Shown in pieces: positions 107 to 4,210 of a stretch of 4,210 nt of DNA. The notes beneath the pieces were generated by a model. The model had not been told where the DNA came from. It searched no databases and saw only the letters and a list, made by a program, of their open reading frames with translations. Numbering within the stretch: the stretch's first letter is position 1; each line of letters opens with the position of its first letter. Where the stretch lies: the IMG/VR virus record IMGVR_UViG_2657245091_000011. One strand, 5' to 3'. Position numbers and translations under genes: made by a program. This DNA is from a virus. Taxonomy: Duplodnaviria; Heunggongvirae; Uroviricota; Caudoviricetes.

Positions 107-340
107 TTATTCTCCGGTGTGCTGTTCGTTATATCTGTCGTGCAATAAGTCTATTTCCTGCAACTCTGTTATTACAGGTTCAAGGAGAGTTATCAGTGAT
201 TTAATAATCCGCGCCTTCTTTACATCACGCTCATTATCGTCAAATGTTTCCAGCCACATTTGCAATATTTCGTACATACCTTCAGCGTAAGCAAGGGCAC
301 TAAATGCGCGGTCTATTGTTTCAATGTAAATATCACGCAT
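107..340 (-). CDS. hypothetical small protein (77 aa)
   Basis: ORF in supplied track; GAGGA 8 nt upstream of ATG (340..338); start overlaps the stop of the upstream ORF (ATGCGTGA); sequence looks protein-like. No family recognised. Confidence 0.5.
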   Translation of the reverse strand: MRDIYIETIDRAFSALAYAEGMYEILQMWLETFDDNERDVKKARIIKSLITLLEPVITELQEIDLLHDRYNEQHTGE

Positions 341-566
341 GGCTTACATCCTCAGGAAATTTTCTTCTGTAACGCGCCTCTGCCACATATTCCGCATAAT
401 CGGCGGCGATATTCAGTACATCAAGTCCCGTTGATTTATATTCTTTCGTGGAAAGTAAGAAAAAAGCCGCTCTAATAAGTTCTGGCATTGACGAAAGCGC
501 ATCAGCCGCATCATCAGGAACGCCGGAAAATTCTTGTTTCAGGGAATTAAAACGATCATCACGCAT
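333..566 (-). CDS. hypothetical small protein (77 aa); possibly the C-terminal half of a frameshifted or phase-variable 155-aa protein
   Basis: ORF in supplied track; ATG at 566..564 lies 2 nt downstream of a G9 run that can act as a Shine-Dalgarno; one extra G would put it in frame with the upstream ORF. Confidence 0.5.
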   Translation of the reverse strand: MRDDRFNSLKQEFSGVPDDAADALSSMPELIRAAFFLLSTKEYKSTGLDVLNIAADYAEYVAEARYRRKFPEDVSHA

Positions 567-799
567 AACCCCCCCCCATTTTCACAATCAGTAATCAGGA
601 TGGTTTTAGCCTCATTCAGTGCCATATCAGCACTAAATTGCATAACAGCCAGTGAGTGAGGAACGAAAGCCCCGGGATATTCTGTTTCGCTGGTGGCGTG
701 CTTATGTGCCCTGTCCGCGATAACAGAAATATCAATCAGCGCGTGCATCAGCGTTTTGATGGCTTCGGCGGCTGCGTCCGGTGTGGTTTTATTGTGCAT
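539..799 (-). CDS. hypothetical small protein (86 aa from ATG 799; the track's longer form starts at GTG 841)
   Basis: Within track ORF 539..841; internal ATG at 799..797 has AGGGGG 6 nt upstream, so preferred as the start; E. coli-like codon choice (CTG, GCG, GAA, ACC); C-terminal GGG codons are the G9 tract. Confidence 0.5.
   Translation of the reverse strand: MHNKTTPDAAAEAIKTLMHALIDISVIADRAHKHATSETEYPGAFVPHSLAVMQFSADMALNEAKTILITDCENGGGLCVMIVLIP
569..577. repeat. C9 (plus) / G9 (minus) homopolymer tract at the junction of two ORFs
   Basis: Nine consecutive C at 569-577, read directly from the sequence. Confidence 0.95.
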
Positions 800-989
800 A
801 GGTTTCCCCCTGGCGAATACGGGCGGCAAATACAGCAACACAACCGGACGGGCAAAGGTTACGCGCTTCGCGTTCCGTCCAGGCGGTTACGTGGATGATT
901 TGAGATTCTCCGGCACTCAGTGCCAGAAAACGCCACACAAAGGCAGTTTGTGTGTGCGCCAGACGTGGGGTATGCTGTGTTCCAGCCAT
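789..989 (-). CDS. hypothetical small protein (66 aa), first gene of the minus-strand operon
   Basis: ATG at 989..987 with AGGAG 8 nt upstream; same frame as the 3' end of the 318-aa track ORF; its stop lies 8 nt downstream of the next ORF's ATG (coupled). Confidence 0.4.
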   Translation of the reverse strand: MAGTQHTPRLAHTQTAFVWRFLALSAGESQIIHVTAWTEREARNLCPSGCVAVFAARIRQGETYAQ

Positions 990-1176: not shown

Positions 1177-1482
1177 ATGGCAAAAAACACTATCAACGAC
1201 AAATCAAAACAGATTTCAATTCGTATCCCACATGATGCTTTTGATGGCATGGAATCCGTAAAACTGGACGGCGAAAGCAACGCCGGATTCATAGTAACCG
1301 CCATGCGCGGGGAGATCGCCCGCCGCCAGGCAGAAGGAAGCAGTGAAAATCCTCTGATTTCTTCTCTCGATGCATTGGCGCAAGTGGAAAAAATTGGTAT
1401 TAAAGCTACGGAAGAACTCGGGCAACTTATCGCCATCGCACGCGAAGAACTCCAGCGCCGCAAGGCCAAAGAAGCGGAATAG
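1177..1482 (+). CDS. small DNA-binding protein, probably ribbon-helix-helix (CopG/Arc-like) transcriptional regulator (101 aa)
   Basis: AGGAGA 6 nt upstream of ATG 1177 (the track's GTG 1138 start is less likely); N-terminal KQISIRIPHDAFDGMESVKL...IVTAMRGEIARR fits a strand-helix-helix pattern by eye; intrinsic terminator immediately downstream. Confidence 0.6.
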   Translation: MAKNTINDKSKQISIRIPHDAFDGMESVKLDGESNAGFIVTAMRGEIARRQAEGSSENPLISSLDALAQVEKIGIKATEELGQLIAIAREELQRRKAKEAE

Positions 1483-1825: not shown

Positions 1826-2404
1826 TTACTGAATACGCTCACCAAAGTAAAACTCAGGCTGATATTCACGTATCAGCCTTTTTTCTTCTTCCTCCAGCTC
1901 ACGCTTTTTGCGCTTACATGCCTGTAGCTCCCTCCCCTTCTGACTAGCACTTAACTGATATTGCTCTTTACGGCGAGAAAAGTCCTGTAATGCGCCCCAC
2001 GGGATACCATAAGCCCCCGTTTTTCTGATTCCTGGTATCACATTCCTGAATACCCAGTTACTGAAACGATGGGCGAATGTGCCTTGCGTCGTTGCTTTGC
2101 GGCTACGGGCTATTAGTTTGTAGAAACCTGACTCAGAGATAATGCTCATATTCTGATTTCCTCCTGGGGTGTAAGTTAAATTTACTCCCTTTTCATCATC
2201 ATCAAGCATCTGCAACGCCGTACGCGAATTGGTCAGTTCCAGCGCAGCGCAGACATCCTTTGCAACAAACCACGGATCGCCGTTCAGATACACCACGCGA
2301 ACGTTCACACTATCAAAGCGCAGAACGACCAGATCACGAAAATCACAGATTTTTTTTACATGACGTGCGTCACCCTTGCCCGTCACGGCAATATTTTTAT
2401 TCAT
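1826..2404 (-). CDS. Bro-N domain protein (phage antirepressor-like N-terminal domain) with a charged C-terminal tail (192 aa)
   Basis: ORF in supplied track; N-terminal region shows Bro-N hallmarks by eye (VVYLNGDPWFVAKDVCAALELTN...DDDEK...SESGFYKLIARSRK...FSNWVFRNVIPGIRKTGAYG); GAGG about 10 nt upstream of the ATG. Confidence 0.75.
   Translation of the reverse strand: MNKNIAVTGKGDARHVKKICDFRDLVVLRFDSVNVRVVYLNGDPWFVAKDVCAALELTNSRTALQMLDDDEKGVNLTYTPGGNQNMSIISESGFYKLIARSRKATTQGTFAHRFSNWVFRNVIPGIRKTGAYGIPWGALQDFSRRKEQYQLSASQKGRELQACKRKKRELEEEEKRLIREYQPEFYFGERIQ
1856..1884 (+). terminator. plus-strand terminator-like hairpin embedded in the 3' end of the Bro-N gene
   Basis: GGCTGATA (1857-1864) / TATCAGCC (1871-1878) 8-bp perfect stem, 6-nt loop, then TTTTTT (1879-1884); the opposite orientation has an interrupted U-tract. 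Confidence 0.4.
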
Positions 2405-2680: not shown

Positions 2681-3919
2681 TCAACCATTTACTACTCTTA
2701 AACCTTTCATACCACCGGATCTATTAATTACCCCTTTTCTCGCATCATCAAAAAAATCACCGACCCATTGCATCATGATCTTACGCTGTTCTAGATAAAT
2801 AGTTCTATTATAAATATCTCTTATTTTATCACCACTTTTATGCGCCAATGCAGCCTCGATTACATCGGGGTTAAATCCCTCCTCATTTAAAAGCGTACTC
2901 CACATTGAACGAAAACCATGTAACGTTACAATCCCTTTGAACTTACTGGCAGCAATTGGGGTCTTGATAGTATTCCTCCCCATAGGCGCATCTTTTGTTC
3001 TGGAGGAAAAAAACACATAACGCCCTCTTTTTATTTCCTGCATTGTTCTGAGGATACTAATAGCCTGTGATGACAAGGGAACAACATGTTCACGATGGCA
3101 TTTCATTTTATGCGCGGGGATAATCCACAAGCCAGAATCAAAATCAATCTCTGACCACTCTGCTTTAATCGCCTCACCTGGCCTGACCATTGTCAATATC
3201 TGGAATAAAAGTGCATTATGAGCTATTTGATAGGTATGAGGCACACTATCCCACCAGCTCAGAAATTCAGGCAATCTTTCAACAGGTAGTGCTGCTAATG
3301 ATTTATTTTTCTTTCCTGTGAATGCAGTCTTTATCTTAAGTAATGGATTTGCTTTCAATGCTCCACAATTTACAGCATAATTCATAATTTCATTTAATCT
3401 TGATATTAATTTTTTTTGCAACGCATTCTTATCGGATACGGCATCCAGAGCATTAATAGCTACTGGTGCTGTAATTTTTTCTATACTGTACTTACCAAAG
3501 AAAGGAACAAGATATTTGTATACTTCATATTCGATATTATACAGCGTAGGTTTCCGCAATTCAGATCCCTTTTTAAAAGCGAACCATGCATTAGCAACAG
3601 CTTCAAATGTCTGTAGATTTTTTAGTGACATCTCAATTTTACGATTTTTCTTCTCCGTCACTGGATCAACTCCACGTGCAATCATTCGCCGAAGTTCATC
3701 ACGTACTTCCCGTGCTTCCGCGAGTGAGAATTCAGGAAAACGTCCTATCGTGTATGTCTGCCGTTTCTTCGTTATCGGATGGCTATAACGGAAACGCCAC
3801 ACTTTCCCACCGGCTTTACTCACATTCAGCAATAAACCGAACCCATCATAAACGGCATAGTCCTTTTCACGTGGTTTCATCCCCTTAACTTCAGTCACGG
3901 TTAATGGCTTTACCGACAT
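2681..3919 (-). CDS. int: site-specific tyrosine recombinase / phage integrase, P4/CP4-like family (412 aa)
   Basis: ORF in supplied track; N-terminal arm-binding-type region (KPLTVTEVKGMKPREKDYAVYDGFGLLLNVSKAGGKVWRFRY); C-terminal catalytic motifs HGFRSMW (H-x-x-R) and IRDIYNRTIYLEQRKIMMQW containing the likely catalytic Tyr; GAGGG 6 nt upstream of the ATG. Confidence 0.93.
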   Translation of the reverse strand: MSVKPLTVTEVKGMKPREKDYAVYDGFGLLLNVSKAGGKVWRFRYSHPITKKRQTYTIGRFPEFSLAEAREVRDELRRMIARGVDPVTEKKNRKIEMSLKNLQTFEAVANAWFAFKKGSELRKPTLYNIEYEVYKYLVPFFGKYSIEKITAPVAINALDAVSDKNALQKKLISRLNEIMNYAVNCGALKANPLLKIKTAFTGKKNKSLAALPVERLPEFLSWWDSVPHTYQIAHNALLFQILTMVRPGEAIKAEWSEIDFDSGLWIIPAHKMKCHREHVVPLSSQAISILRTMQEIKRGRYVFFSSRTKDAPMGRNTIKTPIAASKFKGIVTLHGFRSMWSTLLNEEGFNPDVIEAALAHKSGDKIRDIYNRTIYLEQRKIMMQWVGDFFDDARKGVINRSGGMKGLRVVNG

Positions 3920-3981
3920 CTATCGCCCTCATTTTTTAGTCCGTCATGTAGTCCATTCAAGCCAATAACAAGCGATAAACT

Positions 3982-4028
3982 AACTCATTATCAAGCAAAG
4001 AGAGGAAACTCATAAAATCACAACTCAT
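3982..4028. repeat. three direct copies of AACTCAT upstream of the integrase gene (candidate arm-type or regulatory sites)
   Basis: AACTCAT at 3982-3988, 4007-4013 and 4022-4028 within the AT-rich int-upstream spacer. Confidence 0.3.
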
Positions 4029-4080
4029 TGAAAAGACTATGAAACGACACCAGAACATACAAACAGGTAAGAAATGTACC

Positions 4081-4210
4081 CTACATCCAAAATGACGCAA
4101 TCCGGGAGTTTCGTGGCGTTCCGGTGATACTGCCGTCCGCCGCCGCCCGTTCACCTTCACGAAGCCAGATCCCCTGGTTATTCAGTTCGCGTTTCTGCTC
4201 AGGGGCAATC
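4081..4210 (-). CDS. 3' end (last 43 codons) of an unidentified gene, probably chromosomal, flanking the element
   Basis: Minus-strand frame open from the window end to TAG at 4083..4081 (...IAPEQKRELNNQGIWLREGERAAADGSITGTPRNSRIASFWM); E. coli-like codon choice; markedly higher GC than the adjacent int region. The plus-strand frame is also open, so strand assignment is not certain. Confidence 0.4.
   Translation of the reverse strand, partial: IAPEQKRELNNQGIWLREGERAAADGSITGTPRNSRIASFWM

What the first reader, a model, noticed from the sequence alone, without database searches (positions are those of the whole stretch)
539..577. C9/G9 homopolymer sits exactly where two ORFs overlap; one extra base fuses them
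The minus-strand G9 tract encodes Gly-Gly-Gly at the end of the 86-aa ORF and lies 2 nt upstream of the next ATG. By hand translation, G10 gives a continuous 155-aa product (...ENGGGVMRDDRF...), whereas G8 truncates the upstream ORF after GGGYA. Homopolymers of this length are prone to slipped-strand mispairing, so this could be a phase-variable switch, a programmed-frameshift-like site, a recent inactivating frameshift, or a sequencing or assembly error. The tract can also serve simply as the SD of the downstream ORF.
Basis: seen in the sequence. Interest (0 to 1): 0.6.

Follow-up and report, generated by a model that had tools for sequence, protein, structure and literature searches.

The report
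Variable poly-G run joining two genes
A run of nine G's between two tiny genes of an E. coli phage-satellite island is a real, length-variable hotspot (6 to 11 G's across strains) that doubles as the ribosome-binding site of the second gene and decides whether the two genes are read separately or as one fused protein; there is no evidence yet that the switching serves a purpose.

Summary
C9 lies at 569-577 (G9 on the minus strand). It ends the 86-aa ORF (799-539) and sits 2 nt before the ATG of the 77-aa ORF (566-333).

The window is E. coli O45:H2 FWSEC0003. The region is the early operon of a PICI-type satellite embedded in a prophage terminase gene.

The tract is polymorphic. In 90 IMG/VR loci it is G7 (23), G8 (34), G9 (18), G10 (4), G11 (2) or interrupted (9). 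All four lengths from G7 to G10 occur in complete E. coli genomes. Exact-protein counts show the window's G9 allele on 244 contigs, so it is not an assembly error.

- G7/G10 give one 154/155-aa protein.
- G8/G11 give the canonical 8-nt stop/start overlap (ATGCGTGA).
- G9 gives a 9-aa hydrophobic tail.

Distant homologues are separate ~75-aa genes with G5 Shine-Dalgarno junctions. The same downstream gene behind an unrelated upstream gene carries a G6-G10 run with the same three outcomes.

Best reading: an expanded, slippage-prone SD run at a translationally coupled junction, with all frames tolerated. Programmed frameshifting, pseudogenisation and sequencing error are not supported. Adaptive phase variation is unproven. 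This is a new member of a known kind, of moderate interest.

The parts
569..577 (-). G9 homopolymer (C9 on the + strand). It encodes GGG at the end of the upstream gene and is the SD-like run of the downstream gene. It is the length-variable site.
   Evidence: sequence; rare by chance. (G6-G11 in homologous loci). (anti-SD duplex of -9.6 to -12.7 kcal/mol for G5-G11).
539..799 (-). Upstream small gene ('N-type'). In the G9 state it is 86 aa: a 74-aa core, then GGG, then a frame-dependent tail LCVMIVLIP.
   Evidence: RefSeq WP_044868570.1. (this exact protein is on 244 contigs). (phrog_5146 and the N half of phrog_2512). (pN/pS 0.51; intact in 90 of 90 loci).
333..566 (-). Downstream small gene ('C-type'), 77 aa, with its own ATG at 566-564.
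   Evidence: WP_001373432.1. (stand-alone homologues start at the same position: MLDDRF, MCDDRL, MYDDRF). (pN/pS 0.44). (phrog_24341).
559..566 (-). ATGCGTGA: the start codon of the C-type gene plus the latent TGA (561-559). That TGA terminates the upstream gene in the G8/G11 frame, giving the canonical 8-nt overlap.
   Evidence: G8 tail is GGGYA*. (the same ...KHA*/ATGCGTGA overlap in the alternative junction with G6).
539..541 (-). TGA stop used by the upstream gene in the window's G9 frame. It lies 25 nt past the downstream ATG.
333..340 (-). The same ATGCGTGA stop/start overlap at the next junction, between the C-type gene and the third 77-aa gene (340-107). It shows the normal junction design of this gene array.
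789..989 (-). Icd-like gene that opens the small-gene array. It overlaps the N-type start by 11 nt. The N-type gene's own SD is a G5 run (CAGGGGGAAACCTATG).

Best explanation
The G9 run is an expanded, slippage-prone Shine-Dalgarno run at a translationally coupled junction. The junction lies between two small early genes of a PICI-type phage satellite.

Replication slippage (slipped-strand mispairing) changes the run's length by one or two bases at a time. The run lies inside the 3' end of the upstream gene and 2 nt before the downstream ATG. Its length modulo 3 therefore selects one of three arrangements:
- (i) G8/G11 (and G5): the canonical design. The upstream gene ends ...GGGYA* at a TGA that overlaps the downstream start (ATGCGTGA).
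- (ii) G9/G6, the window's state: the upstream protein gains a 9-aa hydrophobic tail (LCVMIVLIP). Its ribosomes run 25 nt past the downstream ATG.
- (iii) G7/G10: the two genes are read as one 154/155-aa fusion.

The downstream protein can presumably still start at its own ATG in every state.

What is shown: the polymorphism, the three coding outcomes, intact ORFs in all states, the separate-gene ancestry, and the SD-like position and pairing.

What is inferred: that slippage is the mutational mechanism, that all three states are tolerated (nearly neutral), and that coupling efficiency differs between states.

The function of the two proteins is unknown.
For: **Length polymorphism**
- The window has G9, strain 10 has G8 and O157:H7 4276 has G7. 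They are annotated as 86+77 aa, 79+77 aa and a single 154 aa respectively.
- 90 IMG/VR loci retrieved by their flanks only: G7 23, G8 34, G9 18, G10 4, G11 2, interrupted 9.
- Complete E. coli genomes: each of G7-G10 has full-length 100% matches. Approximate counts are 358 genomes holding G7, about 179 G8, about 167 G9 and about 20 G10, out of 650.
- Exact-protein counts on one N-type haplotype: G6 70, G7 at least 1000, G8 912, G9 140, G10 41 and G11 19 contigs.
- Window haplotype: G9 244, G8 34, G7 1.

**The tract changes faster than its flanks**
- 7 of 11 haplotype groups with identical 467-nt flanks contain more than one length.
- A contig identical to the window's genome for 1260 nt upstream and 760 nt downstream carries G7 instead of G9.

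**Two genes, not one**
- Distant homologues of each half are stand-alone proteins of about 75 aa.
- N-type genes elsewhere are followed by unrelated small genes, with G5 SDs and overlapping stop/start.
- Both halves are intact in 90 of 90 and 84 of 90 loci whatever the tract state, with pN/pS 0.51 and 0.44.
- The low-confidence AF2 model gives two helical segments either side of a stretch of pLDDT below 50 (residues 75-101) that begins at the tract. This is weak support only.

**SD role**
- The same C-type gene behind an unrelated upstream gene of about 140 aa has G(n)-TAAAC-ATG, with n = 6, 7, 8 or 10 and the same three outcomes. G6 is modal there and canonical.
- Anti-SD duplex energy is -9.6 to -12.7 kcal/mol, against -6.9 to -9.4 for neighbouring genes.
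- G runs acting as SDs in E. coli reporter constructs are noted in PMC4066793.
Against: - There are no read-level or experimental data. Within-culture heterogeneity, switching rate and protein products are unknown.
- Some minor length classes in public assemblies could be homopolymer sequencing errors.
- The fused G7 state is the commonest in complete genomes, though O157:H7 is oversampled. 'Canonical = two genes' therefore rests on distant homologues and junction design, not on frequency.
- A gap of 2 nt between the run and the ATG is short for an SD. Only the upstream part of the run would be at a usual distance.
- Pairs with identical flanks of +-500 to 1000 nt mostly share the same length (14 of 15 and 5 of 6). 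The site is therefore much slower than classical phase variation.
- Near-neutrality is inferred only from the presence of all three frames, not tested.
Confidence: 0.75

Rival explanations
1. A selected contingency locus, i.e. true phase variation. The satellite keeps a pure poly-G run because stochastic, reversible switching between the split, tail-extended and fused forms of two early proteins (or tuning of the downstream gene's translation) diversifies satellite-helper interactions. This would be bet-hedging.
For: - Length polymorphism between near-identical elements.
- The same toggle at an independent junction, and further variable G runs in the same gene arrays.
- The run is pure in 81 of 90 loci although the flanking genes differ at pS of about 0.4.
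- Contingency loci were recently reported in coliphages T2 and T4 (bioRxiv 10.1101/2025.10.21.683753).
Against: - Elements identical over +-500 to 1000 nt usually share the same length. That implies a rate far below classical phase variation.
- All three frames and stabilised (interrupted) alleles occur, with no evident preference.
- The whole junction block (12 nt before and 16 nt after the run) is conserved. Purity of the run can therefore be explained by SD function or by homogenising recombination.
- No phenotype or function is known for either protein.
Confidence: 0.18
2. A recent inactivating frameshift. The ancestral gene encodes one protein of about 155 aa, and G8/G9 alleles such as the window's are broken copies.
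For: - The fused form is annotated as a single CDS in O157:H7 and is the commonest state in complete genomes.
- PHROGs has a 154-aa family, phrog_2512.
Against: - More distant relatives are separate proteins of about 75 aa with their own starts and stops and non-homopolymeric junctions.
- The downstream ATG and SD run are conserved.
- Both halves remain intact and constrained in G8 and G9 loci.
- G8 recreates the array's standard ATGCGTGA overlap.
- The window's G9 allele is on 244 contigs.
Confidence: 0.07
3. Programmed recoding. In G9 (or G8) strains, -1 ribosomal frameshifting on G_GGG_GGG, or RNA-polymerase slippage on the run, makes a defined fraction of fused protein.
For: - In the window's frame the run is formally an X_XXY_YYZ heptamer, and a -1 shift would give the fusion.
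- Long homopolymers can cause transcriptional slippage (general knowledge; reviewed in PMC5009743, which was listed but not read in detail).
Against: - The frame relation is not conserved. All three occur in close relatives.
- There is no stimulatory structure downstream: MFE -20.7 kcal/mol, z = -0.30.
- G_GG.G_GG.N heptamers are not among the efficient E. coli motifs. G_GG.G_GG.U gave 0.018% (PMC4066793).
- Documented bacterial transcriptional slippage sites are A/T runs (my recall).
Confidence: 0.05
4. A sequencing or assembly artefact. The true sequence has another length, and the apparent polymorphism reflects homopolymer errors.
For: - Homopolymers are error-prone on some platforms.
- Minor classes in large databases may include errors.
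Against: - The window's exact 86-aa product occurs on 244 contigs from independent assemblies.
- Lengths are lineage-consistent: identical +-500 nt flanks give the same length in 14 of 15 pairs.
- The broad distribution has G7, G8 and G9 each in many IMG isolate assemblies and in complete genomes.
Confidence: 0.02

Closest known systems
Homopolymeric-tract contingency loci (slipped-strand mispairing phase variation, e.g. poly-G/C tracts in Neisseria, Haemophilus, Campylobacter, Bordetella)
   Same: A G/C run of 7 or more in a coding region. Its length differs between closely related genomes and changes the reading frame.
   Different: - The host is E. coli, which is mismatch-repair proficient and, by my recall, poor in such loci.
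- No ON/OFF outcome is evident. Both genes stay translatable, and the change is split versus tail-extended versus fused.
- The apparent rate is much lower, since identical elements usually share a length.
- No phenotype is known.
Phage contingency loci in T2/T4 (Gomez, Barrick and Waters, bioRxiv 10.1101/2025.10.21.683753)
   Same: Short homopolymers in a mobile viral genome of E. coli that generate frameshift variants.
   Different: - Those were shown by deep sequencing and selection experiments in lytic phages replicated by their own polymerase.
- Here the element is an integrated satellite, and the evidence is between-strain polymorphism only.
Translationally coupled overlapping genes with the downstream SD inside the upstream gene (ATGA or ATGxxTGA overlaps in phage and operon gene arrays)
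   Same: - The G8 state gives an 8-nt overlap (ATGCGTGA), identical to the next junction in the window (333-340).
- There is a G-rich SD inside the upstream gene.
- Distant homologues have G5 SDs.
   Different: The SD has expanded to a homopolymer of 7-11 nt. It is long enough to slip, so the coupling geometry is itself polymorphic.
Programmed -1 ribosomal frameshifting or transcriptional slippage sites (dnaX, IS911/IS3, mxiE)
   Same: Two overlapping ORFs joined at a slippery homopolymer, with a fusion product possible.
   Different: There is no conserved frame relation, no stimulator, and the motif is a poor one for E. coli ribosomes.
Helper-embedded and gram-negative PICIs (PMC10111431) and EcCIEDL933-type capsid-forming PICIs (bioRxiv 10.1101/2022.09.08.507074), as context for the locus
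   Same: - int, an AlpA-like HTH gene, BRO-N, an Icd-like gene, small genes, DUF4222, a RepA-type helicase, and its own protease/capsid gene.
- The island splits a prophage terminase large-subunit gene.
- The O157:H7 homologue has the same layout from the integrase to the RepA helicase.
   Different: The small genes and their poly-G junction do not appear in any of the passages I retrieved from those papers (term searches only; the papers were not read in full).

Membership tests
SSM contingency locus (phase-variable homopolymer) | Homopolymeric tract of about 7 nt or more within or next to a coding sequence | tested here: met
   G9 at 569-577, inside the 3' end of one gene and 2 nt before the next ATG.
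SSM contingency locus (phase-variable homopolymer) | Tract length differs among closely related strains or elements | tested here: met
   G6-G11 on a single protein haplotype. 7 of 11 identical-flank groups are mixed. G7 versus G9 occurs with identical flanks of 1260 and 760 nt.
SSM contingency locus (phase-variable homopolymer) | Length change alters the reading frame or expression of a gene | tested here: met
   Three coding outcomes by length mod 3: 79/80 aa, 85/86 aa, and a 154/155-aa fusion. Expression itself was not measured.
SSM contingency locus (phase-variable homopolymer) | High-frequency, reversible switching within a clonal population | not testable with these tools
   No reads are available. 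Indirectly, elements identical over +-500 nt share a length in 14 of 15 pairs, which argues for a modest rate.
SSM contingency locus (phase-variable homopolymer) | A phenotype or selective benefit linked to the switch | not testable with these tools
   Both proteins are of unknown function: no Pfam or PADLOC match, and the PHROG families are 'unknown'.
Programmed -1 ribosomal frameshift site | Slippery heptamer X_XXY_YYZ in the zero frame | tested here: met
   G_GGG_GGG in the window's frame. However, G_GG.G_GG.N motifs are absent from the list of efficient E. coli motifs (PMC4066793).
Programmed -1 ribosomal frameshift site | Downstream stimulatory structure | tested here: not met
   The 99 nt after the run fold no better than shuffles (z = -0.30).
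Programmed -1 ribosomal frameshift site | Frame relation of the two ORFs conserved among homologues | tested here: not met
   All three frame relations occur among 90 close relatives.
Translationally coupled overlapping gene pair | Downstream gene has its own start codon preceded by an SD-like purine run inside the upstream gene | tested here: met
   The ATG at 566-564 is conserved. The G run precedes it in two unrelated upstream contexts. Anti-SD pairing is -9.6 to -12.7 kcal/mol. The 2-nt spacing is short.
Translationally coupled overlapping gene pair | Upstream stop overlaps or abuts the downstream start | tested here: inconclusive
   Met in G8/G11 alleles (ATGCGTGA). In the window (G9) the stop lies 25 nt past the ATG, and in G7/G10 there is no stop.
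Frameshifted pseudogene of a single ancestral gene | Full-length single-ORF homologues are the ancestral or general state, and the downstream part decays | tested here: not met
   Distant homologues are separate genes of about 75 aa. The downstream gene is intact in 84 of 90 loci, with pN/pS 0.44.
Helper-embedded PICI (context of the locus) | PICI gene set (int, alpA-like, replication module) integrated inside a late gene of a prophage | tested here: met
   By annotation only. The island of about 10 kb lies between the N- and C-terminal fragments of a terminase large-subunit gene of a lambdoid prophage. The att sites were not mapped.

The most novel reading that the evidence does not exclude
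The poly-G run is a genuine contingency locus of a phage satellite. Stochastic, reversible slippage, possibly boosted during satellite replication, keeps each population a mixture of split, tail-extended and fused versions of two early proteins. It could also set the translation level of the second. The result would be heterogeneous satellite-helper interactions as a bet-hedging device. The same design recurs at other G-run junctions of these gene arrays.
Probability: 0.15. Interest if true: 0.65.

Novelty: new member of a known kind. Interest (0 to 1): 0.38.

Why it matters
If the switching has a function, it would be the first contingency locus described in a phage satellite. It would also be one of the few homopolymer-based ones in E. 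coli, and it would act by fusing or separating two proteins rather than turning a gene on or off.

Even without a function, there are three practical consequences:
- This one site explains why annotation pipelines and family databases carry the same locus as one gene or as two (154/155 aa versus 79/86 + 77 aa; phrog_2512 versus phrog_5146 + phrog_24341).
- It is a ready-made natural marker of slippage in E. coli islands. About 16% of complete genomes (889 of 5426) match the junction query, most of it flanking sequence from the downstream gene's start, and 650 of them match across the whole junction.
- It warns against calling such split ORFs pseudogenes or sequencing errors.

Tried and rejected
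- **Function searches.** Pfam, PADLOC and Rfam gave nothing for the two genes or the region. PHROGs gave only 'unknown function' families. tblastn of the fused protein against 50,697 phage records found no match, so it is not a P4 orf151 or epsilon-type relative by sequence.
- **Structure.** The AlphaFold2 model of the fused protein, built from a shallow 26-sequence alignment, had low confidence (pLDDT 55.8, pTM 0.43). No fold search was run on it, because the matches would be meaningless.
- **First dN/dS attempt.** The ungapped version was invalid. Alleles differ by indels and mosaic blocks, which gave pS 0.48 and pN 0.31. It was redone on a codon alignment.
- **Megablast identity-band counts**. 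These are approximations. I subtracted a baseline of 239 partial matches (889 matching genomes minus 650 with 80% or more coverage). Genomes with several copies are counted under their best copy.
- Contigs for the window-haplotype G8 protein could not be fetched. The G7 variant could.
- **Species-level scan.** The genome scan found the exact junction only in Shigella flexneri besides E. coli, so it gave no out-group information.
- **Promoter/terminator scan** near the tract: nothing relevant.
- **+ strand of 539-577.** I considered whether it carries anything. It holds only short spurious ORFs.

Full report
**1. Observation**

The + strand of the window reads ...cgcat aa ccccccccc att... The C9 lies at 569-577, which is G9 on the minus strand.

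On the minus strand, the ORF 799..539 is 86 aa from its ATG and ends ...ILITDCENGGGLCVMIVLIP*. The ORF 566..333 is 77 aa (MRDDRFNSLKQE...) and starts 2 nt after the run. The two overlap by 28 nt. RefSeq annotates exactly these two CDSs.

It is the only G/C run of 6 or more in the window. A C9 or G9 appears in only 0.8% of first-order Markov simulations of the window. The hand-translated G8 and G10 products are correct and both exist in nature.

**2. Where it sits**

The window is 100% identical to E. coli O45:H2 FWSEC0003 (NZ_CP031916.1).

The genes run in this order: integrase, AlpA-like HTH, BRO-N, a divergent YlcI/YnfO gene, an Icd-like gene, three small genes (86, 77 and 77 aa), DUF4222, a RepA-type helicase, SSB, and the island's own ClpP-protease/major-capsid fusion.

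The island of about 10 kb lies between the N- and C-terminal fragments of the terminase large-subunit gene of a lambdoid prophage. This is the 'helper-embedded PICI' configuration described in PMC10111431. The gene set is that of gram-negative PICIs and of EcCIEDL933-type islands (bioRxiv 10.1101/2022.09.08.507074).

The two small genes have no Pfam, PADLOC or Rfam match. Their PHROG families are of unknown function.

**3. The tract is polymorphic**

- A three-way alignment shows G9 (window), G8 (strain 10, annotated 79 + 77 aa) and G7 (O157:H7 4276, annotated as one 154-aa CDS) in otherwise near-identical junctions.
- A scan of IMG/VR that required only the flanks (12 nt and 16 nt) returned 90 loci: G7 23, G8 34, G9 18, G10 4, G11 2. 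There were nine interrupted alleles: GGGGGTGG x3, GGGGTGGG x2, GGGGGGGGTGG x1 and GGGGAGGGGGGG x3.
- In 5,426 complete E. coli genomes, 889 match the 53-56-nt junction query and 650 match it over 80% or more of its length (run plus both flanks). Each of G7, G8, G9 and G10 has perfect full-length matches. After subtracting the 239 partial matches, about 358 genomes hold a G7 copy, about 179 G8, about 167 G9 and about 20 G10. These are approximate, O157:H7 is oversampled, and some genomes hold two copies of different length, e.g. E2865.
- Exact-sequence look-ups in about 15 billion proteins gave, for one N-type haplotype: G6 70 contigs, G7 at least 1000, G8 912, G9 140, G10 41 and G11 19.
- For the window's own haplotype the counts were G9 244, G8 34, G7 1 and G10 none.

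The window's G9 is therefore a real lineage allele, not an assembly error.

**4. How fast does it change?**

Among haplotype groups with identical 467-nt coding flanks, 7 of 11 contain more than one tract length.

The one contig carrying the window haplotype with G7 is identical to the window's genome for 1260 nt upstream and 760 nt downstream of the run.

However, pairs identical over +-500 nt share the length in 14 of 15 cases. Over +-1000 nt they do so in 5 of 6.

My inference is that the run changes about as often as one substitution arises per 1-2 kb. That is roughly a thousand times the per-site rate. It fits slippage at an 8-9-nt run in a mismatch-repair-proficient host (rates are from my recall). 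It is far slower than classical phase variation.

**5. One gene or two?**

A full HMMER scan of 1.84 billion representatives found only 53 relatives. The distant ones match either half alone and are about 75 aa long:
- N-type: P0203, P0204, P0216, P0220 and P0221, with ordinary C-termini.
- C-type: P0194, P0201, P0213, P0232 and P0237, starting at the same methionine.

In their contigs these are again int-AlpA-...-DUF4222-primase islands. There the N-type gene is followed by unrelated small genes, with junctions such as CAGGGGGCGCACCATGCCTAA and AAGGGGGTTGATCATGCGTAG. That is a G5 SD plus overlapping stop and start.

In the E. coli loci, both halves are open in nearly all cases whatever the tract state (N-type 90 of 90; C-type 84 of 90). 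Both are moderately constrained, with pN/pS 0.51 and 0.44 on a codon alignment at pS of about 0.4.

The AF2 model of the fusion is of low confidence. It shows two helical segments either side of a stretch of pLDDT below 50 (residues 75-101) that begins at the tract, so it offers only weak support.

G8 restores ...GGGYA* with the stop inside ATGCGTGA. This is the same 8-nt overlap found at the next junction of the window (333-340).

So the basic architecture is two translationally coupled genes, and the fusion is a derived state.

**6. The run is the downstream gene's SD**

I retrieved loci by similarity to the C-type protein, which is independent of the junction sequence. Every one of the 76 junctions examined has a G-rich run before the ATG.

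Most have the N-type junction. Sixteen have a different upstream gene of about 140 aa, with the junction ...GTCATTCA-G(n)-TAAAC-ATGCGTGA. Fifteen of the sixteen were analysed for frame:
- n = 6 (11 loci) gives the canonical ...QGGKHA* overlap.
- n = 7 or 10 stops at TAA just before the ATG.
- n = 8 gives a 218-aa in-frame fusion.

Predicted pairing of the run with the 16S 3' end is -9.6 to -12.7 kcal/mol for G5-G11. That is stronger than for neighbouring genes, which range from -6.9 to -9.4. G runs acting as fortuitous SDs in E. coli constructs are noted in PMC4066793.

The N-type gene's own SD in the window is also a G5 run.

**7. Recoding**

In the window's frame the run is formally G_GGG_GGG. 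Three results argue against programmed frameshifting or programmed transcriptional slippage:
- All three frame relations occur among close relatives.
- The 99 nt downstream fold no better than shuffles (z = -0.30).
- G_GG.G_GG.N motifs are not among the efficient -1 motifs in E. coli. G_GG.G_GG.U gave 0.018%.

Low-level adventitious slippage cannot be excluded.

**8. Selection on the switch?**

All three frames are common:
- IMG/VR: fused 27 of 90, canonical 42 of 90, G9-type 21 of 90.
- Stabilised, interrupted alleles exist in the canonical frame (6), in the G9 frame (3, each still holding a G7 run) and in the fused frame (P0072...CEN-GW-VMRDD).

I see no frame preference beyond lineage effects. 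The run is pure in 81 of 90 loci, even though the flanking genes differ at pS of about 0.4. But the whole junction block is conserved too, so SD function or mosaic recombination at a conserved boundary explains this as well as selection for mutability does.

Adaptive phase variation is therefore possible but unsupported.

**9. Verdict**

A real and unusually long G run in an E. coli satellite island. It is an expanded SD at a coupled gene junction. It slips, and so it toggles the locus between two genes (two variants) and one fused gene.

It works like a homopolymeric contingency locus at the DNA level and meets the sequence-level criteria. The defining population-level and phenotypic criteria could not be tested.

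Compared with known systems, it is a new member of a known kind. Contingency loci have only recently been reported for coliphages. I found no description of one in a satellite among the hits of three term searches of the paper library, of which one included satellite/PICI terms.

Noticed in passing
window 2681-4210; L099 11804-23952 (NZ_CP031916.1 2489803-2501951): The whole island (integrase through its own protease/capsid gene, about 10 kb) is inserted in the terminase large-subunit gene of a lambdoid prophage. Window 4084-4210 is the end of the N-terminal terminase fragment. The C-terminal fragment follows the island. This matches the 'helper-embedded PICI' configuration at a terminase site described in PMC10111431.
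   Followed up: partly
L116, L121-L123, L131, L134, L137, L141, L171, L173-L178 (junction just upstream of the match start in each): The same downstream (C-type) gene also occurs behind an unrelated gene of about 140 aa, with the junction GTCATTCA-G(n)-TAAAC-ATGCGTGA. In the 15 analysed loci listed here, n = 6 (11 loci, canonical overlap), 7 (1), 8 (2, a 218-aa in-frame fusion) or 10 (2). One search found 16 such junctions. This is an independent instance of the same three-state toggle.
   Followed up: yes
L011 8905 and L032 1662 (site B); L067 3809, L029 7384, L041 6202, L052 6256, L058 401 (site C): Other G8-G10 runs occur in the same satellite family. Site B is a run 2 nt before another ATG (GATAATTAC-G8/G10-ATATGCCAAAG). 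Site C is a G5-G9 run inside a variant of the third small gene that shifts its frame. Variable G runs seem to be a recurring feature of these gene arrays.
   Followed up: partly
window 799-800 versus L002 1989-2222 and L003 1986-2198: The window lacks a gene of about 200-230 bp between the Icd-like gene and the N-type gene. Close relatives carry one, in two unrelated versions: 77 aa in strain 10 and 70 aa in O157:H7. In the window the Icd-like gene overlaps the N-type start directly.
   Followed up: no
window 333-340 and 559-566: The octamer ATGCGTGA (start codon plus an overlapping stop, giving ...HA*/MRD...) recurs at successive junctions of the small-gene array. A close variant (ATGCGTAG) is found in a distant relative (L088). 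It may be a conserved module boundary for mosaic exchange.
   Followed up: partly
window 333-799 (PHROG hits): PHROGs carries the fused form (phrog_2512, 154 aa) and the split forms (phrog_5146 and phrog_24341) as separate families. RefSeq annotates the locus as one or two 'hypothetical proteins' depending on tract length. The database is thus split because of this one site.
   Followed up: yes
window 2350-2357 and 3410-3417: Two T8 runs on the + strand (A8 on the coding strand) lie inside the BRO-N gene and the integrase gene. They are potential slippage or transcriptional-slippage sites. Their variability was not examined.
   Followed up: no
window 1177-1482 (+), 1514-1533 and 1633-1660: The divergently transcribed YlcI/YnfO-family gene is followed by two terminator-like hairpins. 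The 190-nt divergent intergenic region (990-1176) between it and the Icd-like gene is presumably the island's regulatory region. It has no Rfam match.
   Followed up: no
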